Under the pieces are notes generated by a model. That model was not told where the DNA came from. It ran no database searches and saw only the letters and a program-made list of their open reading frames with translations. Source: Gemmatimonadota bacterium (GTDB taxonomy: Bacteria; Gemmatimonadota; Gemmatimonadetes; Palauibacterales; Palauibacteraceae). Taken from it: a DNA stretch of 64,000 nucleotides. The first letter of the stretch is position 1; every line of letters starts with the position of its first letter. The position numbers were made by a program, and so were the translations under genes. The stretch covers positions 2,279 through 66,278 of the forward strand of contig JBDGYE010000009.1 of assembly GCA_039584255.1 (NCBI GenBank), read 5' to 3'. Shown here piece by piece: positions 1 through 55,381 of this stretch.

Positions 1-1062
1 TCCGCGATAAGCTTCCGGGCCGAGGATCTGATAGCCGAGGAGCAGATGGTGATCACCGTCAGTCACCAGGGCTACATCAAGCGGATCGCTCCCGCCGTCT
101 ACCGCCAGCAGCGCCGGGGTGGCAGGGGCATCGCCGGAATGGACACGAAAGAGGAAGACTGGGTCGAGCACCTCTTTCTCGCCTCCACCCACGACTACCT
201 GTGCGTGTTCACGGCCGGGGGGCAGGTCTACTGGCTCAAGGTTCACCAGATCCCGCTCGCGTCGCGTACCTCGCGGGGCAAGCCGATCGTCAACCTCCTG
301 AACATCTCCAGGGACGAGAAGATCGCCTCTATCGTCCGGGTACGGGACTTCGAACCGGAACGATACCTTCTCTTTGCCACCCGGCACGGGCTGGTCAAGA
401 AGACCAGCCTGGCGGCCTACTCCAACGTGCGGTCTGTGGGAATCAACGCCATCAACGTCGTCGAGGGCGACCGGCTTATCGACGTTCAGCTCACCGACGG
501 CCACAACGATGTCATCCTGGCGACCCGGCATGGGATGGCCATTCGCTTCCCGGAGGCCGACGTGAGGAAGATGGGCAGGGCGACCAGAGGAGTGAGGGGA
601 ATCAACCTCGTGGACGGAGACGAGGTCATCGGGATGGTCGTGGTCCGTGAAGGTGCCAGCCTGCTCTCGGCGACCCGCCAGGGAATGGGCAAGCGCACCA
701 GGGTGGAGGATTACCGTCCGCAGCGTAGGGCGGGGAAGGGACTGATCAACTTCCGGACCACCGATAAGACTGGGGAGGTGATGGCGGTGAAAGAGGTGAC
801 GGCCGAGGACGAGTTGATGCTCGTGACCCGCGGAGGCGTCATCAACCGCCAGCACTCCAGCGAGATAAGGGTCATCGGTAGGGCCACGCAGGGAGTGCGG
901 CTAATATCCCTGGACGAGGGCGACGAGTTGATGGACGTGGCCAAGATCGCCACCGAAATCGCTGACGAAGAGGACGACGGGGTGCCGACGGACGAGACCA
1001 GCGAGCGCCCGGAGACAGAAGAGCGGGCCGTAGCCGGAGAACCGGCCGACAGCGAGTCCTGA
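1..1062 (+). CDS. gyrA: DNA gyrase subunit A, C-terminal domain (5' end lies outside the window)
   Basis: Frame 1 is open from base 1 with no upstream stop, so the listed ORF 46..1062 is only the tail of a longer gene. The translation shows VITVSHQGYIKR, RGGRGI and repeated ~50-aa blades carrying GKPIVNLL, ATRGVRGI and ATQGVRLI, followed by an acidic tail. This is the GyrA beta-pinwheel CTD pattern. Confidence 0.9.
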   Translation, partial: SAISFRAEDLIAEEQMVITVSHQGYIKRIAPAVYRQQRRGGRGIAGMDTKEEDWVEHLFLASTHDYLCVFTAGGQVYWLKVHQIPLASRTSRGKPIVNLLNISRDEKIASIVRVRDFEPERYLLFATRHGLVKKTSLAAYSNVRSVGINAINVVEGDRLIDVQLTDGHNDVILATRHGMAIRFPEADVRKMGRATRGVRGINLVDGDEVIGMVVVREGASLLSATRQGMGKRTRVEDYRPQRRAGKGLINFRTTDKTGEVMAVKEVTAEDELMLVTRGGVINRQHSSEIRVIGRATQGVRLISLDEGDELMDVAKIATEIADEEDDGVPTDETSERPETEERAVAGEPADSES

Positions 1063-1063
1063 G

Positions 1064-2089
1064 ATGTGGAGCGGCTACACGAACGGCGCCGTGCTGCCTA
1101 GCCTCCAACTCGTAGACCTGGAGACGATCCGTGACGCGGGTCACCGGATAGCGGGAGCGGTTCGCCGGACCCCGCTGCTGCCGGTGGCGTGGGGGGATGC
1201 CGGCCTCGGGCCATCTCCCCGCAGGGGAAGCCTGTGGCTGAAGTGCGAGTGCCTCCAGTTCGCCGGCGCATTCAAGCTTCGCGGCGCATACAACTTCATG
1301 GCCAGCCTCGACCCGGCAGCCAGGTCGGCCGGCGTCATCACGTACTCGTCCGGAAACCACGCACAGGGAGTGGCCTGGGCGGCCCGTGCGTTCGGAGTCC
1401 CCGCCACGGTCGTCATGCCGGTCGACGCTCCGGGCATAAAGGTAGAGGCTGTGCGGCGCCTCGGCGCCCGTCTGGAGCAGGTGGGGACGACGACGATCGA
1501 TCGGAAGGCGCGCGCCGAGGCGATCCTGGCAGAGCGCGGGGGTACAATGGTGCCTCCGCGCATCATAGCCGGTCAGGGCACGGTGGGCGTGGAGATCTTC
1601 GAACAGCTGACGGAAGCAACGAGTCGGGCGCTGCTGGACGGCGATCTTCGCCTCGTGGCGGTGCCCATCGGCGGCGGCGGCCTCATATCCGGGGTGGCCG
1701 CGGCGCTCAGGGCTCTGGTGCCTGACGCTCGAATCGTGGGAGTGGAGCCGGAAGGCGCGGCGAAAATGAGCCAGTCGCTGGAGGCGGGCCGGCCGATCAC
1801 GCTCGAGACGATCGATACGATCGCGGACGGCCTGAAGCCGGTACGTCCCGGGGATCTCACGTTCGCGCACTGCCGTGAGCTGGTGGATGAGGTCGTGACG
1901 GTTCCCGACGGCGCGATCCGGGACGCGGTGTTGTGGTGCTATGGGCGGCGGTTGGTTGTCGAGCCTAGCGGGGCCGCGACGGTAGCGGCACTGGCGACCG
2001 GAGCTGTCGTGCCGCCCGACGATGGCGACACCGTGGTCGTGCTTTCAGGGGGGAACCTGGACCCGGGACTTCTACGGGAATGGCTGTAG
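1064..2089 (+). CDS. PLP-dependent threonine/serine dehydratase family protein (threonine ammonia-lyase-like)
   Basis: 341-aa ORF with the PLP-lysine motif FKLRGAYN, then SSGNHAQGVA and the glycine loop PIGGGGLISG typical of fold-type II PLP dehydratases. It starts 2 nt after the gyrA stop. Confidence 0.8.
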   Translation: MWSGYTNGAVLPSLQLVDLETIRDAGHRIAGAVRRTPLLPVAWGDAGLGPSPRRGSLWLKCECLQFAGAFKLRGAYNFMASLDPAARSAGVITYSSGNHAQGVAWAARAFGVPATVVMPVDAPGIKVEAVRRLGARLEQVGTTTIDRKARAEAILAERGGTMVPPRIIAGQGTVGVEIFEQLTEATSRALLDGDLRLVAVPIGGGGLISGVAAALRALVPDARIVGVEPEGAAKMSQSLEAGRPITLETIDTIADGLKPVRPGDLTFAHCRELVDEVVTVPDGAIRDAVLWCYGRRLVVEPSGAATVAALATGAVVPPDDGDTVVVLSGGNLDPGLLREWL

Positions 2090-2124
2090 AGAGGCGTGAC
2101 ATAGAGTCAGGGAGGAAGCGTAGA

Positions 2125-2871
2125 GTGAGCGACTTTTTCATAGCTGTCACGGCCCCGGTGCGGGAGGACGAGATCGGGATGCCCGGCGTCGTCCTGGAGG
2201 AGGGATACCTGGCGGCGATGAGAGTGGCGGGGGGGCTGCCCCTGGTCCTCTCTCCCGCGTCCGAGCCGGAGGTTCGGGATCGCCTGTTCGGCCTGTCGAG
2301 CGGACTCATGCTCACGGGGGGCGAGGACCTCGACCCTGCCGCCTACGGAGAGCAGCCGGACGGAGCAAGGCGGATCTCGCCGCTGCGCGACACGATGGAG
2401 ATCGAGTTGGTCCGCGGGGCGATCGAGCGAGGGATGCCTGTGCTGGCCATCTGCAGAGGAGTACAGCTCCTCAACGTGGCCCTCGGCGGGACGCTCTACC
2501 AGGACCTGGAGACGCACTGGAGCGACAGCATAGATCACGACCGGTATCGGGAGTTCGGTGGGTCGATTCACTCCATCCGACCCGACGGAGTCCGGCAACT
2601 GGCGGGAGTGCTGAACGGTGAGGAGTTCGATCAGAACTCGGCACACCATCAGGGCATCAAGGACATTGCGTCGGGCCTGCGTCCGGTGGCCTGGGCCCCG
2701 GACGGCCTGGTGGAGGCAGTGGAGTGCCGGGAGCCGTGCGACGGGTGGACCGTCGGCGTACAGTGGCATCCGGAACGGAAGCTGGACGACCGGAGCGGAA
2801 CGAACCGTCGTCTGTTTCAGCGGTTCGGCGAGGAGATTCTGAGAAAACGGGTTGGGGATCCGTGCCCCTGA
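2125..2871 (+). CDS. class I glutamine amidotransferase-like hydrolase (gamma-glutamyl-GABA hydrolase / peptidase C26, PuuD-like)
   Basis: Nucleophile elbow AICRGVQLLNVALGG and the QWHPE His/Glu motif. The longest ORF starts at 2080, inside the upstream gene. In-frame GTG 2125 is preceded by GGAGG at 2111-2115, so I prefer 2125; the start is uncertain. Confidence 0.75.
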   Translation: MSDFFIAVTAPVREDEIGMPGVVLEEGYLAAMRVAGGLPLVLSPASEPEVRDRLFGLSSGLMLTGGEDLDPAAYGEQPDGARRISPLRDTMEIELVRGAIERGMPVLAICRGVQLLNVALGGTLYQDLETHWSDSIDHDRYREFGGSIHSIRPDGVRQLAGVLNGEEFDQNSAHHQGIKDIASGLRPVAWAPDGLVEAVECREPCDGWTVGVQWHPERKLDDRSGTNRRLFQRFGEEILRKRVGDPCP

Positions 2872-3566
2872 GACACCGGCTGCTGTTGTTCGACATCGAC
2901 GGAACGCTAGTGAACACCCTGGGCGCAGGCCGATCCGCCATCTTCACGGCGATGACGGAGGTCTATGGCGAGACCGGACCGATCGACGGCTTCCGCTTTC
3001 ACGGGAAGACGGACCCGGCCATAGTGCGGGGACTCCTGCGGGCCGCAGGCCACGGCGACACCTGGATCGAGCGGGGCTTCGACCGCCTCTGGGAACGTTA
3101 TTACGAGGAGCTCGAGAACGAGCTCGCTGCTCGCGACGGCCGGGTTTTCACCTACCCGGGCGTCACAGACCTCTTGGAGCGCCTCGGCTCCGACGATCGT
3201 TTCTGCCTCGGCCTCGTAACGGGCAACATGGAGCGCGGCGCCTGGCAGAAGTTGCGGGCGTGCGGACTCGACGACCATTTCGGCTTCGGTGCCTTCGGCT
3301 CCGATTCAGAGCACCGCGAGGATCTGCCGCCTCTCGCTCGAGACAGGGCGGAGGCCAGCCTGGGAAGGTCTTTCGTGCTCGGGGAGGCCATCGTCGTGGG
3401 CGACACCCCCGAGGACATCAACTGCGCGAGGGTAAGCGGAGCCCGGGTCCTGGCGGTGGCTACGGGGCGCAACTCGATCGACGAGTTGGCCGAGCACAAT
3501 CCCGATGCGGTCGTCTCCGATCTGTCGGACACGAACCTCGTGATGCGGATACTCTCAGATGACTAG
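2862..3566 (+). CDS. HAD-superfamily hydrolase (phosphoglycolate phosphatase-like)
   Basis: HAD motif I LLLFDIDGTLVNT, motif II LVTGN, and a C-terminal VGDTPEDI Asp motif. The long ORF (2724..) overlaps the upstream gene in another frame. In-frame GTG 2862 sits just before the domain, so the start is inferred. Confidence 0.75.
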   Translation: MPLRHRLLLFDIDGTLVNTLGAGRSAIFTAMTEVYGETGPIDGFRFHGKTDPAIVRGLLRAAGHGDTWIERGFDRLWERYYEELENELAARDGRVFTYPGVTDLLERLGSDDRFCLGLVTGNMERGAWQKLRACGLDDHFGFGAFGSDSEHREDLPPLARDRAEASLGRSFVLGEAIVVGDTPEDINCARVSGARVLAVATGRNSIDELAEHNPDAVVSDLSDTNLVMRILSDD

Positions 3567-47265: not shown

Positions 47266-47409
47266 TCCCAGGCGCCCACCTCTTGCATCCTGCAATTCCT
47301 TCCCTATCATTGGCTTCGACGAGCAGGCGAAATGCAGGCCGACGGAGGCATACGGGGCCGGCGCCGGCCCCGGCGACAGCCATTACCGAATCAGGGGAAC
47401 GGACCAAGA

Positions 47410-49269
47410 GTGCTTCGTCCGAGCAGGACTGACCGGCGGGCTGCCGCGGCTCTCGAGCCGATGGGCGTGCTCTACTGGATCTACGCCGGCCGCCTCGTCA
47501 TCTCTCTGGTTATCTACGGTCTGGCGGTCCTCGTCGGCGACTTCCTGGCCTCTCTGGCACCGGGGCCGATCGCGACTCAGGTGCGCGCGATTGGCATCAT
47601 CGGGATAACTGCTGCGGCCCTCATCACCCCACTGGCCTATTGGTACAGCCACAGACGGGTCCGGCAGATTTCTCGGAGCTTCCTCTACTCCCAGGCCCTT
47701 CTCGACGTCGTCCTGGCCAACGGCATCGTCCATGTCACCGGCGGGAGCCAGAGTCCATTCGTCTCGCTGTTCATAGGCCTCGCTGCCGCATACGCCCTGG
47801 TACTCCCGCTTCCGTCGGCGGTTCTGGTAGCGCTGGCCACGGGTGCCCTCTACCTGCTGGACAACCTCGTGGCCTTCCCGGACCAGGTGAGCACTCTGGC
47901 CTTGCTGTTGCAGGTGGCCGTGTTCACGCTCGTGGCTCTGGTCACCAGCCTGGTCGGTGCGCGGCTCCGGGACGTGCGGAAGGAGCTCCGCACCGTGGAG
48001 GGAGAGCTGCGCAGACTGCGGCTCGACACGGCCGACATCCTGAGGATCATCCCTTCCGGCGTCCTGACTCTGGACTCCGAAGGACGCCTTGCCTACATGA
48101 ACCTCGCCGCGGCCGAGCTGCTGGACCTGGAGGTGACGGAGCTGCTGGGTCGTGGGATCGTGTCCCGCCTGGAGACCAGGGCTCCCGGGGTCGCGGCCGC
48201 GATCCAGGAGACGCTCGGCACCGGACGGCGGATCCGGGACCGGGAGGCCGAGCTCCTGCCACCGGAGCTCGCCGACCCGATCGACGGAGACTCACTCTAC
48301 GAGCTGAGGCCGGGTGTCCCCGTCGCCGTGAGCACGACCGTGGTCCAGGAGGCTGGAGCGGGGCCGTCGCACGTGGTGCTGCTTCAGGACCTGCGGGCGA
48401 GCCGGCAGCTCGAAGATCTCCGGCTTCGGACCGGCCGGCTCGAGGCGGTGGCGGAGCTATCGGCCTCGCTCGCCCACGAGCTCAAGAATCCCATGGCGTC
48501 GGTCAGAAGCGCCGTCGAGCAGCTGTGCGAGCGTGCCCGTGAGGACGAGGACGACGCGGTGTTGGGAAGACTGATCCTTCGAGAGAGCGACCGCATGGGG
48601 AAGATCCTGGGCGAATTCAGCGACTTCGCCCGCGTGGATGTGGCCCAAAGGAAGCCGGTCAACGTGGAGAAGCTGCTGCGGAACGTCACGGAAACGGCGC
48701 AGCGACATCCCGCGGCGGAGGCACGGGCCACGATCGACGTTGACGTTGCCGACGAGCTCACCGGGCTGTGGGGTGACCCGGAGCTGTTGCACCGGGTAGT
48801 GCTCAACCTCGTGCTTAACGCACTTCAGGTCGGAGATCCGGAACGACCGGTGACGGTGAGGATCGTGGCCGACTCGCTCCGCCCGGATCTGGTCCCGAGC
48901 GGGATGGCACTTCGCAACCCGGTTCGCATCCGGGTCATCGACGACGGTCCCGGCATAGACCCGCAGGATCTACCGAGAATCTTCGATCCCTTCTACACGC
49001 GCCGCGAAGGAGGAAGCGGCCTCGGGTTGTCCATCGCTCATCGGGCGGTCCAGGCACATGGAGGCACTCTGATCGCGACTTCGACGCCCGGCCGCGGTGC
49101 CACCTTCATCATGGTCCTGCCGCGGCGGTCGGTTCTAAGTCCGCCTCCACGGTTCGAGGACCGGAGAGGCGAGCTCGCGGAAGCCGCGGAGGAAGCCGTG
49201 CGGGCCGGCGCCGCGGGTGCTCCTGTGGGGTCCGTCGGCGCGAACGATACGGAGGACGAGAGCGCGTGA
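47410..49269 (+). CDS. pilS: sensor histidine kinase, PilS-like
   Basis: About 6 N-terminal TM helices, a PAS-like segment, the H-box SASLAHELKNPMASV, an N/G-box region, and GSGLGLSIAHRAVQAHGGTL. Start is GTG 47410 or ATG 47461. The 47332 extension is Arg-rich and unlikely. Confidence 0.75.
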   Translation: MLRPSRTDRRAAAALEPMGVLYWIYAGRLVISLVIYGLAVLVGDFLASLAPGPIATQVRAIGIIGITAAALITPLAYWYSHRRVRQISRSFLYSQALLDVVLANGIVHVTGGSQSPFVSLFIGLAAAYALVLPLPSAVLVALATGALYLLDNLVAFPDQVSTLALLLQVAVFTLVALVTSLVGARLRDVRKELRTVEGELRRLRLDTADILRIIPSGVLTLDSEGRLAYMNLAAAELLDLEVTELLGRGIVSRLETRAPGVAAAIQETLGTGRRIRDREAELLPPELADPIDGDSLYELRPGVPVAVSTTVVQEAGAGPSHVVLLQDLRASRQLEDLRLRTGRLEAVAELSASLAHELKNPMASVRSAVEQLCERAREDEDDAVLGRLILRESDRMGKILGEFSDFARVDVAQRKPVNVEKLLRNVTETAQRHPAAEARATIDVDVADELTGLWGDPELLHRVVLNLVLNALQVGDPERPVTVRIVADSLRPDLVPSGMALRNPVRIRVIDDGPGIDPQDLPRIFDPFYTRREGGSGLGLSIAHRAVQAHGGTLIATSTPGRGATFIMVLPRRSVLSPPPRFEDRRGELAEAAEEAVRAGAAGAPVGSVGANDTEDESA

Positions 49270-49300
49270 CGCCGTCACGCGCCGCAACCGAGGAGCCAAG

Positions 49301-50665
49301 ATGCGCGACAAGCCCGTTCTGCTGCTGATCGACGACGAGCAGAGTCTGGTCGAGACACTCGAGGTGCTCCTGAAGCGCGAGGGATTTGACGTGCTAGCGG
49401 AGCTGTCTGGCGCCACCGGCCTGAAGCGGTACAAAGAAGACAGGCCGGACATCGTGCTGTCCGACGTTCGGATGCCGAAGATGAGCGGAATCGAGGTGCT
49501 GGAGGAGATTCGCAAAGCCAACCCGGACACCCCCGTGGTGCTCATGACCGCGCAGGCCTCGCTTACATCGGCCATCCAGGCCGTGAACCTGGGCGCGACC
49601 CACTACATCCAGAAACCGTTCAAGAACGAAGAGCTGATCGCGATCTTGAACCGCTCGTTGGACTGGGGGCGGCTGAAGAAGGAGAACACGGGCCTCAAGC
49701 GCGAGCTGAAGCGCCAGCAGACCCTCAAGAGCGGACGGCCCATCGGCGTCAGCCCCACGTTCGAGAGCTCGCTGAAGCTGGCCGACAGCGTCGCCGACAG
49801 CGAGAGTACGATCCTGATAGCCGGCGAGAGTGGCACGGGAAAAGAGGTCTTCGCCCGTTACATTCACGACCTCTCGCCCCGGGCCAACCGGCGCTTTCTG
49901 TCGTTGAACTGCGGCGCTCTGCCCGAGGGGCTGCTCGAGTCAGAGCTGTTCGGCCATGTGAAGGGCAGCTTCACCGGCGCCGTGAAGGACAAGGAAGGAC
50001 TGTTCGTGGCGGCTTCCGGAGGGACCTTCTTCCTGGATGAGGTCGGGGAGATGGCCCCGTCGACTCAGGTGAAGCTCCTGCGGGTTCTGCAGCAGAGAGA
50101 GGTAATCCCGGTGGGCGCCACCGAGTCTATTCCGGTTGACGTGAGGCTGATCGCCGCCACCAACCGGGAGCTGGAGCGGGACATCGAAGAAGGACGCTTC
50201 CGCCGGGATCTCTTCTACCGGCTCAACGTCATCACGATCGATCTCGCGCCGCTCCGGGACCGGCCCGAAGACGTCCAGCTTCTCACGGAGCACTTCCTGG
50301 GGCGTCACGCCGGCCCGGACGGTAAGGCTAAGAAGGTGTCGCCCAAAGCGATGGCCGTGCTCCAGGGATACCACTGGCCGGGCAACGTGCGAGAATTGGA
50401 GAACGTCGTCGAGAGAGCCGTGGTGCTGACTCCGGGCGCCAACATCAAGCCGGACGCGCTGCCGGCACGCCTGACGGAAGCGCCGCCGGAGCCCCTGATT
50501 CAGGACAGGCCGGCACCGAATCCGCCCCTGGAGATCATCGAGCGGGCCTACATCGAGCACGTGCTCCGGGCGGAGGGGGGCAACAAGACGCGCGCGGCCG
50601 AGGTTCTCGGAATCGATCCGAGCACTCTTTACCGCAAGATCAAGCGGTACGACCTTGAGGGTTGA
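49301..50665 (+). CDS. pilR: sigma-54-dependent response regulator, PilR/NtrC family
   Basis: Receiver domain (LLIDDE...DIVLSDVRMPKMSG), AAA+ domain (GESGTGKEVFA, ESELFGHVKGSFTGA, GTFFLDEV), and a Fis-type HTH (NKTRAAEVLGIDPSTLYRKIKRY). ATG 49301 is preceded by AGGAG. Confidence 0.85.
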   Translation: MRDKPVLLLIDDEQSLVETLEVLLKREGFDVLAELSGATGLKRYKEDRPDIVLSDVRMPKMSGIEVLEEIRKANPDTPVVLMTAQASLTSAIQAVNLGATHYIQKPFKNEELIAILNRSLDWGRLKKENTGLKRELKRQQTLKSGRPIGVSPTFESSLKLADSVADSESTILIAGESGTGKEVFARYIHDLSPRANRRFLSLNCGALPEGLLESELFGHVKGSFTGAVKDKEGLFVAASGGTFFLDEVGEMAPSTQVKLLRVLQQREVIPVGATESIPVDVRLIAATNRELERDIEEGRFRRDLFYRLNVITIDLAPLRDRPEDVQLLTEHFLGRHAGPDGKAKKVSPKAMAVLQGYHWPGNVRELENVVERAVVLTPGANIKPDALPARLTEAPPEPLIQDRPAPNPPLEIIERAYIEHVLRAEGGNKTRAAEVLGIDPSTLYRKIKRYDLEG

Positions 50666-50795: not shown

Positions 50796-50811
50796 CGGCA
50801 CGGGGGTTGCC
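50796..50811 (+). promoter_or_regulatory. sigma-54 (-24/-12) promoter upstream of the pilin gene
   Basis: CGGCACGGGGGTTGCC matches TGGCACG-N4-TTGC, with GG at 50797-50798, GC at 50809-50810 and exact 10-nt spacing. It lies about 90 nt upstream of the pilin ATG and directly downstream of pilS-pilR. Confidence 0.6.
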
Positions 50812-50902: not shown

Positions 50903-51226
50903 ATGCTCCGCGACACGAAGGGCTTCACGCTGATCGAGCTGCTGATCGTCGTCGTGATCATCGGCATTCTGGCCGCGATCGCGATTCCGCAGTTCGCCAG
51001 CACGAAGGAGAAGGGCGTACTTTGCAGACAATCAGTCGTACGGCAATGCCGCCACGGTCATGACGGCGGGCAACTTCACGACGAGCACGGGCATGGCGAT
51101 AGGGGCCGGCGGCACGGCCGGCGGTTATGCCGTGACCGCTTCGCACACCAGCTCGGGCAACACCTACTACGTGGTAGTTGGCTCGGGAAGCTCGACCGAG
51201 GGCAAGATCCTGAAGCAGTAAGCTGA
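50903..51226 (+). CDS. pilA: type IV major pilin (PilA-like); reading frame apparently broken by a 1-nt insertion near 51013-51016 (true stop probably 51219-51221)
   Basis: GGAGG at 50894-50898. The class III signal is MLRDTKG|FTLIELLIVVVIIGILAAIAIPQF, with Glu+5. After ...STKEKG the listed frame becomes Arg/His-rich nonsense. The +1 frame instead reads YFADNQSYGNAATVMTAGNFTTSTG...YYVVVGSGSSTEGKILKQ*. Confidence 0.8.
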   Translation: MLRDTKGFTLIELLIVVVIIGILAAIAIPQFASTKEKGVLCRQSVVRQCRHGHDGGQLHDEHGHGDRGRRHGRRLCRDRFAHQLGQHLLRGSWLGKLDRGQDPEAVS

Positions 51227-51329: not shown

Positions 51330-53729
51330 ATGAGTCCAGCAGCGGACAAAGAGTCGCCTCGCTCCGGCGCCGCGGCCGCCACCACGGTGCTGTGCGGCCT
51401 TGCCGCACTGCTGTTCGCGCCTGTGCTGGTTGGCGGCGAGACCTTCTTCAGCCGCGACATCGCTCCGTTCTTCTACCCGATGAAGCATTACCTCGCGGAG
51501 TCGGTGCGCAGCGGAGGGCTTCCCCTTTGGAACCCCTGGATCGTCAACGGCGAGCCGTTCTTCGCCTCGTTGCAGCCGGGGCTCCTCTACCCCCCCAACC
51601 TGCTCCTGTACGGACTTCCCCTGCCGCTGGCATTCAACCTTCTCCTGGTCCTGCATTATCCCCTGGCGGGAGTCGGCATGTACGTGCTCCTCCGGCGCTG
51701 GGGCCACGGCTGGGCGGGCGCCGTCCTGGGGGCCGTAGCCTTCATGGTGGGCGGCTTCTACGTGTCGCTGGGGAACTTCCTCAACAACCTCCAGGCGGTG
51801 GCCTGGACACCGTGGCTTCTGGTGGCCTGGGACAGGGTGATGATGGGGCGCCGGCCGCGCGACGTAACGCTGTTCGCTGTCGTCTGCGGCGCGGCCTTCT
51901 TGGGGGGAGAGCCCCAGATGTTGGGCATCGCGCTACTCCTGCTGCTGGTCCACGGTCTCCTGAGGGTCGAGCGGCGCCCGGCCGGCCGGGGCGGCCAGCT
52001 GTTCGCCTTCGCCTTGGGAGGAGTGCTCGCGATCTGCCTGGTGGCCGTCCAGTTCGTGCCCTTCGTCGAGTACATCGGCCAATCGGTTCGCACGCTTCCC
52101 ATCGAGCTGGAGTACTCGGCCTCGCGTTCGCTTACGCCGCTGGGAACCCTGGGCGTGTTCGTTCCACCTGTCCTGGCCGGCGGCGCGCACGGTTTCACCA
52201 CGCGTTACCTTCCGGCCAGCGAGGTGCCCTGGCTGCTTAGCGTCTACGTGGGCGTAGTCGTTCTCCTGTACGCCGCCCTCGGGGTGTTCCTCCGCCGCGG
52301 GCGGCGGTGGGCGCTGTTCTGGACCGTGACGGCGGCCCTCGGCATTCTGCTCGCGCTGGGCAGCTACAGTCCGCTGTTCAAGGCGCTGTTCGGCTGGATT
52401 CCGCCGCTCCGGGCCTTCCGCTACCCGGAGAAGTTCTTCCTGCTGACCGCCGTAGCCGTGCCAGTGATGGCTGCTCAGGGGTTCGATAGCTGGCTAGGCC
52501 GGTTTCGCGATGCGGGTACCGAGTCACGGCGTCTGGACCGCGCGACGTGGTCCCTGCTGGTTGCGGCGCTGCTCGCCTATGGCGCGACGGCGCTCATAAT
52601 GGTGGCAGATGAGGGCGTCCTGGCTACGGCCTGCGGGGGCTGGCTCGAAGGAGCGCTGCTGTGCTCCGATTCGGCCGAGGCACAGCGACTGTACGCCCTG
52701 CAGTCGCTCGTGCCCATCGCCTTGATCGCGGTTCTGGCGGCCGTGCAGGCCCTGCTCAGGGCAGGCCGGCTGCGACCGGCGGCCGCCGCCTGGCTCGTGC
52801 TGGCGTGCTGCGCCGGCGACCTGATGATCGCTCACCGGGTCGTCAATCCATCGGTTCCCTCCGACATCTACACCACGCCCCCGTGGACAGCAAAGGTGCT
52901 GGACCGTGCCGACGCCGGCCCCGAGGAGTACAGGTTCCGAGGCTCCCCTCACATCGCCGCCATGGGGAGCATCGTCACGGTCCAGGGGGCCTGGGAGCTC
53001 ACCAACATGTACCTGGACTACCAGACCATGGGGCCGAACGTAGGGCAGATGTTCGGTCACCCGATGCAGGACGGTCTCCAGGGCGTCGAGCTCCAGTCGG
53101 TGGCGCTCACCAACGAGGCGGCGATGAGGGCCTGGGCCGTTGATCCGCTGAGATTCCTGCAGGCGATGAACGTACGGTATTACGCCGACGCGACGGTCGA
53201 AGCGGACGCGATGACAAGTCTGCGCCTGATCGAATCCAACCCGGAGCTCCCGATCAGGGTGTTCGAGGTGCCGGATCCCCTTCCGCGAGTCTACTTGGTG
53301 CCCCGATACGAGCTCGCCGCTGGACCGGAAGAGGCGCTGCGCCGGACGCTGGACGAGACCTTCGTCCTGGGGGCCGCGGTCGTGCTGGAGCAGGAACCGG
53401 CGCTGAAGCCGGCGCCGAAGGCCCGCGGAGAGGTCTTGGAAAGGGCGTTCGAGACCAACCGTGTGAGGCTGCGTATCCGGACGTCGGGACCGATGCTGCT
53501 GGTCCTCAACGACCGTTTCTATCCAGGCTGGACAGCGACGCTGCTCGGGCACCGGCTGCCTATCCTGAGGGCAAACGGAGTGTTCCGGGCCGTCGCCGTT
53601 CCCGGCGGCGAGCGCGAGGTCGTATTCGAGTACGCTCCGGCCAGCATCCGGATCGGCGCCTGGATCAGCCTCGCCACGCTGCTCCTCCTGCTGGGCGTCT
53701 ACCGCCTGTCCCGGAGAAGGGCAGGATGA
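51330..53729 (+). CDS. YfhO-family polytopic membrane protein (GT-C fold glycosyltransferase)
   Basis: 799 aa. The N-terminus ETFFSRDIAPFFYPMKHYLAESVRSGGLPLWNPWIVNGEPFFASLQPGLLYPPNLL is the YfhO-type pattern. Many TM helices precede a large C-terminal extracytoplasmic domain and a terminal TM. Its stop overlaps the next start (ATGA). Confidence 0.6.
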   Translation: MSPAADKESPRSGAAAATTVLCGLAALLFAPVLVGGETFFSRDIAPFFYPMKHYLAESVRSGGLPLWNPWIVNGEPFFASLQPGLLYPPNLLLYGLPLPLAFNLLLVLHYPLAGVGMYVLLRRWGHGWAGAVLGAVAFMVGGFYVSLGNFLNNLQAVAWTPWLLVAWDRVMMGRRPRDVTLFAVVCGAAFLGGEPQMLGIALLLLLVHGLLRVERRPAGRGGQLFAFALGGVLAICLVAVQFVPFVEYIGQSVRTLPIELEYSASRSLTPLGTLGVFVPPVLAGGAHGFTTRYLPASEVPWLLSVYVGVVVLLYAALGVFLRRGRRWALFWTVTAALGILLALGSYSPLFKALFGWIPPLRAFRYPEKFFLLTAVAVPVMAAQGFDSWLGRFRDAGTESRRLDRATWSLLVAALLAYGATALIMVADEGVLATACGGWLEGALLCSDSAEAQRLYALQSLVPIALIAVLAAVQALLRAGRLRPAAAAWLVLACCAGDLMIAHRVVNPSVPSDIYTTPPWTAKVLDRADAGPEEYRFRGSPHIAAMGSIVTVQGAWELTNMYLDYQTMGPNVGQMFGHPMQDGLQGVELQSVALTNEAAMRAWAVDPLRFLQAMNVRYYADATVEADAMTSLRLIESNPELPIRVFEVPDPLPRVYLVPRYELAAGPEEALRRTLDETFVLGAAVVLEQEPALKPAPKARGEVLERAFETNRVRLRIRTSGPMLLVLNDRFYPGWTATLLGHRLPILRANGVFRAVAVPGGEREVVFEYAPASIRIGAWISLATLLLLLGVYRLSRRRAG

Positions 53730-55381
53730 CTCCCACCCAGAGCGAGCTCCGGACCTTGGGATTCAGCCTCTTCGGAGCGGCGTTCCTCGCCGTTCTTCTT
53801 ACGGCGGGCGACTACGGCATCGCCAGCGATGTAGGCAACTACTTCTACTCCTCGTTGCGGCAACTGGCCTGGGCGAAGGAGCTGGGCGCGTCGATCCTGG
53901 CTGGCGATCCCGGTGCCGCCTTGGACCGCTCGGTAGTCTTCGACCACTGGCGATGGTACCCGGAGCGCATACCCCATCCCCCGCTGTCACGGGAGCTGAG
54001 CGGGCTCTCATATGCTCTTCTCGGCGGGCCACTGGATCCGCTGACCGCGTATCGAGTGGCGGTGATGGTAGCCTTCGCACTCCTCGTCGCGGGGTGTGGC
54101 GTCTTCACGGCCTGGGCGGCGCGGTCGATAGTGGCGGGGACCGCCGCGGGCCTGGCCCTCCTTACCGTGCCGGCGCTGTTCGCCCACGGACACCTGGCGC
54201 ACACGGACGTCTTCCTGACCGTCTTCTGGTTCGGATGTGCTGCCAGCCTGTTCGTCTCGACCCGCGAGAGGAAGGCGAGTTGGCTGGCCGCTGCGGGAAT
54301 CCTGTTCGGCTGCGCGGCGGCAACGAAGTTCTCCGGGCTCCTGCTGGTTCCGGTGGCGGCGGTGTGGCTCCTGGCCCGGCGTCGCCCGGACATCTACGCC
54401 TTTCTCGCATTCGGCCTCATCGGGCTCGTGACCTTCTTTCTGGTGAACCCCGTGCTCTGGGTAGATCCCGCCCTGGGGCTGCGGGACTACTTCGAGGCCG
54501 GCCTGTTCCGCTCTGACGCCAGGGTTACCCGCATCTCCACCGAGTATCTCGGCAGCATCTACGACTTCCGGCCGCCGTGGCACTACCCGTTCGTGTGGAC
54601 GGCCATCGTCATGCCGCTCCCGATTCTCGCGGCGACCGTCGCGGGTCTCACCAGCAGGCGGGACCGTCCGCTGCTGCGCCTCACGGGCCTGAACGTAGCC
54701 GTACTGTACGGCGCCCTCATGCTGCCGGCGGCTCCGATGCACGACGGTATCCGACTGTTCCTACCGGCCTTCGCTTTCTGGGCCGTGCTCGCCGGGGTGG
54801 GCACCGGACGCCTGAGCGAGCTAGCCACCGCCAGAGCGCCGGAGCGGATGACCTCGTGGATCCCTGCGGCCGTCACCCTGCTCGTGTTCGCCCTGCCGGC
54901 GCTTCGCACGGTACAGTACCACCCATTCCAGCTCTCCTACTTCAACGCCCTGGTTGGTGGCGTGAGAGGTGCCCAGGAGCGTGGCCTCGAGGTAACGAAT
55001 CTCAAGGAGGTTCTCAGCCGCGAAGTGCTGGCGGACCTGGCGGTAGCGATCGAGCCCGGCACGGTTGTCGATCCCGGCTTCTTTCTCGAGGAAATCTGCT
55101 TCTACCAGGCCGTGGGGTGGGCTCCGCGCGAGTGGACGGCCGAGACGACACTGGAGCGCGAGGATCTAGAGGAAGGACTGGCCCTGGCGTGCGAGGGGCC
55201 CAACAGCTTCGTTTACATTCCACTGGACCGACCCGCGCGCGAGCCCGCGTTCGTCTTCGTTCTCAACCGCCGGGCTCAATGGCGGTCCATCGAGTGGGCC
55301 CTGTACGATTTCAGCGATCGACCGTTCTACGAAGTTGCGGTGCGGGGAGTGCCCCTGATGAGGGTATACCGGGTCCGATGA
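53726..55381 (+). CDS. GT-C fold membrane glycosyltransferase, PMT_2/GT39 (ArnT/Pmt-like) family
   Basis: 551-aa polytopic protein with motifs IPHPPLSRE, HLAHTDV, AATKFSG, and PMHDGIRLFLPAF. It is a paralog of the next gene. Both junctions are ATGA overlaps. Confidence 0.65.
   Translation: MTPTQSELRTLGFSLFGAAFLAVLLTAGDYGIASDVGNYFYSSLRQLAWAKELGASILAGDPGAALDRSVVFDHWRWYPERIPHPPLSRELSGLSYALLGGPLDPLTAYRVAVMVAFALLVAGCGVFTAWAARSIVAGTAAGLALLTVPALFAHGHLAHTDVFLTVFWFGCAASLFVSTRERKASWLAAAGILFGCAAATKFSGLLLVPVAAVWLLARRRPDIYAFLAFGLIGLVTFFLVNPVLWVDPALGLRDYFEAGLFRSDARVTRISTEYLGSIYDFRPPWHYPFVWTAIVMPLPILAATVAGLTSRRDRPLLRLTGLNVAVLYGALMLPAAPMHDGIRLFLPAFAFWAVLAGVGTGRLSELATARAPERMTSWIPAAVTLLVFALPALRTVQYHPFQLSYFNALVGGVRGAQERGLEVTNLKEVLSREVLADLAVAIEPGTVVDPGFFLEEICFYQAVGWAPREWTAETTLEREDLEEGLALACEGPNSFVYIPLDRPAREPAFVFVLNRRAQWRSIEWALYDFSDRPFYEVAVRGVPLMRVYRVR

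What the first reader, a model, noticed from the sequence alone, without database searches (positions are those of the whole stretch)
50903..51226. Major pilin gene is interrupted by a single extra base
**Seen in the sequence**
- The ORF begins with a textbook prepilin signal: MLRDTKG|FTLIELLIVV, with Glu+5.
- After ...ASTKEKG the frame turns into Arg/His/Gly-rich nonsense (VLCRQSVVRQCRHGHDGG...).
- The +1 frame from about 51017 reads YFADNQSYGNAATVMTAGNFTTSTGMAIGAGGTAGGYAVTASHTSSGNTYYVVVGSGSSTEGKILKQ, with a stop at 51219-51221.
- Deleting one G from the GGG run at 51013-51015 restores ...KEKAYFADNQ... and gives a 105-aa prepilin.

**Possible explanations (inference)**
- a sequencing or assembly indel
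- a genuine inactivating mutation in the only pilin gene in the window
- slippage-type variation, which is less likely because the run is only 3 nt

The consequence is that automated annotation would report a pilin with a bogus C-terminal half.
Basis: seen in the sequence. Interest (0 to 1): 0.6.

Follow-up and report, generated by a model that had tools for sequence, protein, structure and literature searches.

The report
Pilin gene broken by assembly error
The "frameshifted" major pilin gene of this uncultured Gemmatimonadota genome is almost certainly an unmarked assembly join that skipped 53 bases, because three assemblies of the same strain each show a different sequence at exactly this spot.

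Summary
ORF 50903-51226 starts as a textbook prepilin, and the coding signal moves to the +1 frame at GGG 51013-51015.

The lesion is not one extra base. All nine orthologs checked, and contigs of close strains in public runs, carry 53 more bases here. These encode 18 conserved residues of the pilin's long N-terminal helix (AFDATAKSDVRNAMSAME).

The decisive evidence comes from two sister metagenome assemblies of the same strain, 99.94-100% identical over 12-20 kb. They differ from the window only at this junction:
- One has 35 of the missing bases and gives a 117-aa protein.
- Breakpoints are shared between the three.

A second spot 5.7 kb downstream behaves the same way: 85 nt are skipped in one assembly and the contig ends there in the other.

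The junction sits at the edge of a stretch shared by hundreds of co-occurring organisms. The assembly is scaffolded, and at least one of its gap sizes is underestimated.

Verdict: local assembly error (about 0.88), not a pseudogene or a programmed event. Source reads were not available. Low interest, apart from three wrong protein records in public databases.

The parts
50797..50810 (+). Sigma-54-type promoter motif GGCACGGGGGTTGC (GG-N10-GC) upstream of pilA. It lies downstream of the pilS/pilR pair (47332-49269 and 49217-50665).
   Evidence: Read. The same motif, GGCACAATGGTTGC, is present upstream of the same-genus ortholog. PilR has Response_reg, Sigma54_activat and HTH_8 domains.
50903..51014 (+). 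pilA 5' segment in frame 0. It covers the Met start, leader MLRDTKG, mature F+1..E+5, the hydrophobic alpha1-N and STKEK. It ends at the left breakpoint ...GAGAAGG.
   Evidence: It is 100% identical to sister assembly L136 up to base 51014, the last base before L136's 35-nt insert. Contigs of other runs that match up to 51014 continue with CGTTCGACGCC....
51014..51015 (+). Junction where 53 nt are missing relative to the full-length form. This is an unmarked join, with no Ns.
   Evidence: - DNA alignment with 5 orthologs shows a 53-nt gap.
- An X1 contig of 149 nt = 43 nt up to 51014 + 53 extra nt + 53 nt from 51015.
- L136 has 35 extra nt here and L135 has one G fewer.
51015..51221 (+). pilA 3' segment in the +1 frame: AYFADNQSYGNAATVM...STEGKILKQ plus TAA. 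This is the globular part of the pilin.
   Evidence: - GC3 is 0.83 in this frame.
- Orthologs in relatives.
- Most strain-level differences in public contigs fall on third codon positions of this frame (positions reckoned from 51015).
50903..51226 (+). The ORF as an annotator would call it: 107 aa, made of 37 genuine residues plus 70 out-of-frame residues.
   Evidence: This exact product is not on record in any other assembly.

Best explanation
The break in pilA is a local assembly error. Two contig ends were joined without Ns across a short stretch that the assembler failed to build.

In the organism, an uncultured marine-sediment Gemmatimonadota bacterium, the gene most likely encodes an intact prepilin of about 123 aa. 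This is the sigma-54/PilSR-controlled major subunit of a type IVa pilus whose other genes are all intact in the window.

The missing 53 nt encode the C-terminal half of the long alpha-1 helix (AFDATAKSDVRNAMSAME).

The failure happens here because the first ~105 nt of the gene are nearly identical in hundreds of co-occurring organisms. The assembly graph is therefore a high-coverage tangle that the low-coverage strain-specific path enters and leaves (inferred).

Shown:
- the missing bases;
- the three discordant assemblies of one strain;
- the second discordant site;
- the scaffolding, and one underestimated gap.

Inferred:
- the exact step in the assembler that made the join.
For: 1. **Orthologs are intact.** All nine orthologous genes inspected, from several genera of the family, are intact 121-123-aa prepilins. 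They have a nearly invariant AFDATAKSD[IV]RNAM.A.EAY[FY] segment that the window lacks. The DNA alignment shows a clean 53-nt gap.

2. **Close strains in public sediment runs carry the full form.**
 - An X1 contig holds exactly 53 extra nt between 51014 and 51015.
 - Contigs in X3 and X25 also run leftwards across 51015.
 - X9, X22 and X24 contigs continue after 51014 with CGTTCGACGCCACGGCCAAGAGCGACGTGC. One of them is identical to the window over 50935-51014.

3. **The window's junction is found nowhere else.** There are no junction words in any indexed run. The exact product is absent from other assemblies. The pattern scan of JGI metagenome contigs found no instance.

4. **Sister assemblies of the same strain disagree only at this spot**.

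| Assembly | Identity to window | Junction sequence | Product |
|---|---|---|---|
| L136 (JGI 3300041077) | 0 mismatches over 6,112 nt up to 51014; 3 mismatches in 5,762 nt after | ...GAGAAGG + 35 nt (AGAGCGACGTGCGCAACGCGATGTCTGCGATGGAA) + GCGTAC... | 117 aa |
| L135/L139 (JGI 3300041085 = GCA_039588855.1) | 99.94-99.96% over 20 kb | ...GAGAAG + GCGTAC... | 105 aa |
| window | n/a | ...GAGAAGG + GCGTAC... | frameshifted |

 The left breakpoint is shared by the window and L136. The right breakpoint is shared by the window and L135.

5. **A second spot behaves the same way.** L135 skips window 56781-56865 (85 nt), which breaks a PMT_2 gene that is intact in the window. The L136 contig ends at 56776.

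6. **The junction lies at the edge of a metagenome-wide repeat.** Summed contig depth is 300-2,700 over 50940-51007, against about 0-30 on either side.

7. **The assembly is scaffolded with estimated gap sizes.** N runs are 1, 3, 20, 25 and 34 long. The 20-N gap inside dxr allows 8 codons where solved Dxr proteins have 17 more residues, an underestimate of about 27 nt.

8. **Everything else in the locus is intact.** This covers the promoter, the RBS, the downstream frame, pilB/T/C/S/R/M/N/O and the minor pilins.

9. **This error class is documented.** Unflagged local assembly errors that propagate wrong protein sequences from MAGs are described in Chen et al. 2020 (PMC7111523).
Against: - The best public holder shares only 0.42 of the words. 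Absence of read support for the junction is therefore inferred, not seen.
- De Bruijn assemblers do not normally invent junctions. The step responsible (scaffolder or gap closer joining ends with an estimated gap of 0 or less) is a guess. The assembler is not known to me.
- The fully intact 123-codon allele of this exact strain was not directly observed. Only 35 of the 53 nt were seen in L136. The remaining 18 nt were seen only in contigs that cannot be tied firmly to this strain.
- Three sister samples could in principle hold three real deletion alleles.
Confidence: 0.88

Rival explanations
1. A genuine 53-nt deletion has inactivated pilA in the sampled population, making it a recent pseudogene. 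One possible cause is selection against piliation by pilus-specific phages. The -18 and -54 forms in the sister samples would then be further real alleles.
For: - The assembled sequences are the only direct data, and all three show a loss in the same 54-nt interval.
- Loss-of-function pilin alleles are common in nature (general knowledge).
- At least one other gene in this genome has a small frame break relative to its orthologs: C62 near 40510.
- A second PilA-like paralog exists that could compensate.
Against: - It requires three independent deletions with shared breakpoints and at most 1 nt of microhomology for the 53-nt form. These would arise in genomes that otherwise differ by 0-9 SNPs per 12-20 kb.
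- It does not explain why a second site shows a skip in one assembly exactly where another assembly's contig ends.
- It does not explain the coincidence with the edge of the high-depth shared stretch.
- No public run holds the junction.
- There is no other decay in the pilus cluster.
Confidence: 0.08
2. A real in-frame 54-nt deletion allele (the 105-aa 'short pilin' of the sister MAG) exists in this lineage. The window adds a single extra G to it, through a sequencing error or a true +1 insertion in GG.
For: - L135/L139 differ from the window at this site by exactly one G.
- In relatives, a 6-nt direct repeat AGGCGT flanks the 54 nt. This could mediate an in-frame deletion.
Against: - L136, the same strain, has 35 nt of the supposedly deleted segment.
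- In this strain the 3' repeat reads AAGCGT, not AGGCGT, so the microhomology is only GCGT.
- The 105-aa form lacks 18 nearly invariant helix residues.
- The model needs two events at one spot.
Confidence: 0.03
3. A programmed event restores the protein: either a +1 ribosomal frameshift or phase variation at the G run.
For: Only that the frame change coincides with a GGG run, and that sister assemblies differ in G number (GG against GGG).
Against: - Orthologs are single-frame genes with 18 more codons here.
- The run is only 3 nt long.
- No read-through would restore the missing helix segment.
- L136 has different sequence at this point.
Confidence: 0.01

Closest known systems
Local assembly errors in scaffolded metagenome-assembled genomes (Chen, Anantharaman, Shaiber, Eren and Banfield 2020, Genome Res 30:315; PMC7111523)
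   Same: - The stretch of consensus disagrees with other assemblies of the same organism.
- It lies at a point of graph ambiguity.
- It produces an incorrect protein-coding gene that has entered public databases.
- Comparing assemblies of the same organism from related samples exposes it, as that paper recommends.
   Different: That paper defines such errors by lack of perfect read support. I could not test read support here. The case rests on discordance between three assemblies and on orthologs.
Short type IVa major pilins: Geobacter PilA-N (PDB 2M7G, 7TGG, 9EGP) and Thermus thermophilus PilA4/PilA5 (6XXD, 6XXE)
   Same: - The full-length ortholog aligns with Geobacter PilA-N over residues 2-65 (E=1e-16 to 1e-19).
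- It aligns with Thermus PilA4 over almost its whole length (E=1e-11).
- Shared features are the class III signal peptide, F+1, E+5, a long alpha-1 helix, a small Cys-free globular part, and a mature length of about 116 aa.
   Different: The window's copy, as assembled, lacks the alpha1-C segment that all of these have. The family has a Ser/Thr/Gly-rich C-terminal half. It is followed by GT-C-type glycosyltransferase-like genes, which is not a feature of the solved examples as far as I know (from memory).
Genuine pilin null alleles and phase variation in cultured bacteria (for example frameshifts at long homopolymer tracts in Neisseria pilus genes; from memory)
   Same: A pilin gene whose reading frame changes at a G run.
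   Different: Here the run is only 3 nt, 53 nt are absent, and the sequence differs between assemblies of one strain. It does not differ between cells in a way supported by reads.

Membership tests
Type IVa major pilin (PilA) | Class III signal peptide: short basic leader ending in Gly, then Phe+1 and Glu+5, followed by about 20 hydrophobic residues | tested here: met
   MLRDTKG|FTLIELLIVVVIIGILAAIAIP. Pfam N_methyl PF07963 at E=2.1e-9 and 37 bits against a cut-off of 21.2.
Type IVa major pilin (PilA) | Continuous alpha-1 helix of about 50 residues (alpha1-N plus alpha1-C), followed in the same frame by a globular beta-sheet domain | tested here: not met
   As assembled, 18 codons of alpha1-C are absent and the rest is in the +1 frame. 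The feature is met in all nine orthologs and partly in sister assembly L136. The failure is attributed to the assembly, not the organism.
Type IVa major pilin (PilA) | Encoded with the pilus machinery (PilB/PilT ATPases, PilC platform, PilMNO) and, in many bacteria, downstream of PilS/PilR with a sigma-54 promoter | tested here: met
   T2SSE x2, T2SSF, HisKA/HATPase_c, Response_reg+Sigma54_activat+HTH_8, PilM_2, PilN and PilO. GG-N10-GC motif at 50797-50810.
Local assembly error (unflagged join) | Other assemblies of the same genome give a different sequence at the spot while agreeing on both flanks | tested here: met
   L135/L139 and L136 are 99.94-100% identical on both flanks. They differ from the window and from each other only at 51014/51015 and at 56781-56865.
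Local assembly error (unflagged join) | No read of the source sample supports the consensus across the spot | not testable with these tools
   The source run was not identified (best share 0.42). Only Logan contigs of other samples could be laid. None reproduces the junction.
Programmed +1 ribosomal frameshift | The two-frame arrangement and the shift site are conserved in orthologs | tested here: not met
   All orthologs are single open frames of 121-123 codons.
Slipped-strand phase variation | A long homopolymer or short-repeat tract whose length alone differs between variants | tested here: not met
   The tract is G3. L135 has G2, but L136 has 35 nt of other sequence at the same point.

The most novel reading that the evidence does not exclude
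The three forms (-18, -53 and -54 nt, with shared breakpoints) could be real co-existing alleles. That would make the start of alpha1-C in this Gemmatimonadota pilin a deletion hotspot that repeatedly yields shortened or null pilins in sister sediment populations, perhaps under pressure from pilus-specific phages.
Probability: 0.05. Interest if true: 0.55.

Novelty: not a real feature. Interest (0 to 1): 0.08.

Why it matters
Biologically it matters little. The organism most likely has an ordinary, intact, sigma-54-regulated major pilin.

Practically it is a clean worked example of a problem in public data. One gene of one strain appears in public records as three different wrong proteins:
- a 107-aa frameshifted product;
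- a 105-aa 'short pilin';
- a 117-aa variant.

All three arise because the conserved prepilin N-terminus is a cross-species repeat in metagenome assembly graphs.

Anyone mining MAGs for unusually short pilins, pilin pseudogenes or loss of piliation should expect this artefact at the alpha1-N/alpha1-C boundary. Candidates should be checked against sister assemblies or reads.

Tried and rejected
- **GC-by-codon-position HMM scan for other frame switches.** Too noisy: 105 and then 62 candidates, mostly ordinary gene boundaries such as the start of secA. It also missed the pilin itself. I abandoned it as a rate estimate. It did point to C62 near 40510, which is short by about 2 nt relative to colinear orthologs. 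It also pointed to C93 near 1027, a frame switch at a G5 run with no orthologs to judge it by. Neither is a skip of tens of bases.
- **Searching runs for the junction words.** Nothing found, but only 4 words were sampled.
- **Looking for the source sample.** Not found.
- **Laying runs on L136.** I wanted to see the intact allele of this strain.
- **Look-up of the window's PilT product.** Intended to fetch more of the L136 contig. Not on record.
- **Within-genome repeats at the two trouble spots.** None found, apart from an 80%/64-nt match between the pilA 5' end and the C11 paralog. Within-genome repeats do not explain the breaks.
- **Pattern scan of JGI contigs.** The 20-nt hits in pilins are normal full-length genes whose alpha1-C begins KEKAYFATMKGDLRN. 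They are not short forms.
- **Rejected explanations.** Programmed frameshift, phase variation, and a chimeric join of unrelated loci. The last is rejected because gene order pilR-pilA-yfhO-like is the same in both sister assemblies.

Full report
**1. The observation**

- ORF 50903-51226 (+) begins MLRDTKG|FTLIELLIVVVIIGILAAIAIPQFASTKEK. It matches the prepilin N-methylation motif PF07963 at E=2.1e-9.
- After GGG 51013-51015 it turns into Arg/His/Gly-rich text.
- The +1 frame from 51015 reads AYFADNQSYGNAATVMTAGNFTTSTG...STEGKILKQ, with TAA at 51219-51221.
- GC3 is 0.94 in frame 0 before the junction. After it, GC3 is 0.83 in frame +1 and 0.58 in frame 0.
- The +1 piece has orthologs in 34 of 41 related genomes, 76% identical in the same genus.

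The frame change is therefore real in this sequence and far beyond chance.

**2. The lesion is 53 missing bases, not one extra base**

- The same-genus ortholog reads ...STKEKAFDATAKSDIRNAMSAMEAYFVDTQAY....
- Eight further orthologs from other genera of the family are all intact 121-123-aa prepilins with the same nearly invariant segment (alignment).
- At DNA level the window has a clean 53-nt gap between ...GAGAAGG and GCGTAC....
- The missing residues are the C-terminal half of the long alpha-1 helix. The ortholog aligns over residues 2-65 with Geobacter PilA-N and over nearly its whole length with Thermus PilA4.
The resulting protein lacks 18 conserved helix residues.

**3. Public runs**

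- The summed depth of contigs matching 50940-51007 is 300-2,700, against about 0-30 on either side. The prepilin N-terminal coding stretch is shared by very many organisms in these sediments.
- Contigs that match up to 51014 continue with CGTTCGACGCCACGGCCAAGAGCGACGTGC, the full-length form. This includes an X9 contig identical to the window over 50935-51014.
- One X1 contig of 149 nt is 43 nt up to 51014, then 53 extra nt, then 53 nt from 51015.
- No contig reproduces the window's junction.
- No indexed run holds its words.
- The exact 107-aa product is in no other assembly.
- A pattern scan of JGI metagenome contigs found no instance.
- The source sample was not among the served runs. The best share of words was 0.42.

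**4. The decisive comparison**

A protein search with the read-through sequence returned two proteins with the window's exact C-terminal half:
- P0002, 117 aa, reading KEK-ESDVRNAMSAMEAYFADNQ...

Their contigs come from two sister JGI metagenomes. One is also deposited as a MAG, GCA_039588855.1. They are the same strain as the window:
- L136 has 0 mismatches over 6,112 nt up to 51014 and 3 mismatches over the next 5,762 nt.
- L135/L139 are 99.94-99.96% identical over 20 kb.

The only structural differences are at two spots.

*Spot 1, position 51014/51015:*

| Assembly | Sequence at the junction |
|---|---|
| window | ...GAGAAGG + GCGTAC |
| L135 | ...GAGAAG + GCGTAC |
| L136 | ...GAGAAGG + AGAGCGACGTGCGCAACGCGATGTCTGCGATGGAA + GCGTAC |

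The 35 nt in L136 encode (K)SDVRNAMSAME, the expected helix residues. Relative to the 123-codon form, the three assemblies lack 53, 54 and 18 nt. They share their left or right breakpoints.

*Spot 2, 5.7 kb downstream:*
- L135 skips window 56781-56865 (85 nt). This breaks a PMT_2 gene that is intact in the window.
- The L136 contig ends at 56776, four bases away.

Recurrent breakpoints are what graph-determined contig ends joined without Ns would give. So are mutually incompatible sequences in otherwise identical genomes, and a skip in one assembly where another assembly stops. Independent biological deletions would not be expected to give this pattern.

**5. Assembly quality**

- The genome is a draft of 140 pieces with N50 32.7 kb and 89% completeness.
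- It has N runs of 1, 3, 20, 25 and 34. It was therefore scaffolded with estimated gap sizes.
- The 20-N gap in dxr allows 8 codons where solved Dxr proteins have 17 more residues. That gap is underestimated by about 27 nt.
- A true gap of 53 nt estimated as zero or less could therefore be closed silently. This is my inference, as I do not know the assembler.
- Chen et al. 2020 (PMC7111523) describe such local assembly errors and their propagation into protein databases. They recommend comparing assemblies of the same organism from related samples.

**6. What is really there**

The organism is an uncultured marine-sediment Gemmatimonadota bacterium, going by the names of relatives.

The window carries a complete type IVa pilus cluster, in this order:
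- comEA, pilB, pilT, pilC;
- an Rrf2 regulator, pilS, pilR;
- a GG-N10-GC sigma-54 motif at 50797-50810, conserved in the same-genus relative;
- pilA;
- four GT-C-like membrane glycosyltransferase genes and a GT2;
- two minor pilins;
- pilM, pilN, pilO.

The real pilA product is most likely a 123-aa prepilin. It would be cleaved after Gly7 by a prepilin peptidase and polymerised through its alpha-1 helix (established for the family; inferred here).

A second PilA-like gene, with a C-terminal Cys pair, lies at C11:3195-3602 beside another sigma-54-type two-component pair.

**7. Verdict**

| Explanation | Confidence |
|---|---|
| Local assembly error | 0.88 |
| Genuine deletion alleles | 0.08 |
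| Real 54-nt in-frame allele plus one extra G | 0.03 |
| Programmed event | 0.01 |

The missing piece of evidence is the source reads. The finding is not a biological feature, so interest is low. Its practical value is as a warning. The alpha1-N/alpha1-C boundary of pilins is a predictable misassembly point in metagenomes. This one gene is present in public data as three different wrong proteins.

Noticed in passing
window 56781-56865: The sister MAG contig (L135/L139, GCA_039588855.1) lacks these 85 nt. That breaks its PMT_2 glycosyltransferase gene into 443/469-aa and 57-aa pieces. The gene is intact in the window. The other sister contig (L136) ends at 56776. This is the same kind of unflagged skip as at pilA, but in a different assembly. 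No within-genome repeat explains it.
   Followed up: partly
genome contig C91:21964-21983: A 20-N scaffold gap lies inside dxr. The flanks allow 8 codons where solved Dxr proteins have 17 more residues, so the gap size is underestimated by about 27 nt. A 25-N gap at C42:8245-8269 lies inside an acyl-CoA-ligase-like gene.
   Followed up: partly
genome contig C62 near 40510 (minus strand): An outer-membrane-like protein changes frame with no Ns. Orthologs in three same-order genomes align colinearly across the point (234 residues over 702 nt). The lesion is therefore a deficit of about 2 nt at ...CAGTCC|GGACGAG..., not a long skip. It could be an error or a real pseudogene.
   Followed up: partly
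genome contig C93 near 1027 (plus strand): A protease/PKD-like protein changes frame at a G5 run (ACCGACGGGGGACGG). No orthologs were found in 12 relatives to judge it by.
   Followed up: partly
genome contig C11:3195-3602 (minus strand), with 350-3121: A second PilA-like prepilin of 135 aa (GFTLVELLIV..., with a C-terminal Cys pair) lies convergent with a sigma-54-type response regulator and a histidine kinase. This looks like a second PilSR-like/pilin module.
   Followed up: partly
window 51330-60025: pilA is followed on the same strand by a YfhO-like protein, three PMT_2-type (GT-C) membrane proteins and a GT2. The pilin's C-terminal half is rich in Ser/Thr/Gly. This suggests, but does not show, a pilin glycosylation module. 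The same gene order is present in both sister assemblies.
   Followed up: no
window 50797-50810 and L010 about 1960-1975 (minus strand): The sigma-54-type GG-N10-GC motif upstream of pilA is conserved in the same-genus relative: GGCACGGGGGTTGC in the window and GGCACAATGGTTGC in the relative.
   Followed up: partly
P0001 and P0002 (public protein collection): The 105-aa and 117-aa versions of this pilin are stored as predicted proteins from JGI and NCBI records. Both lack part of the conserved alpha-1 helix and are probably assembly products.
   Followed up: yes
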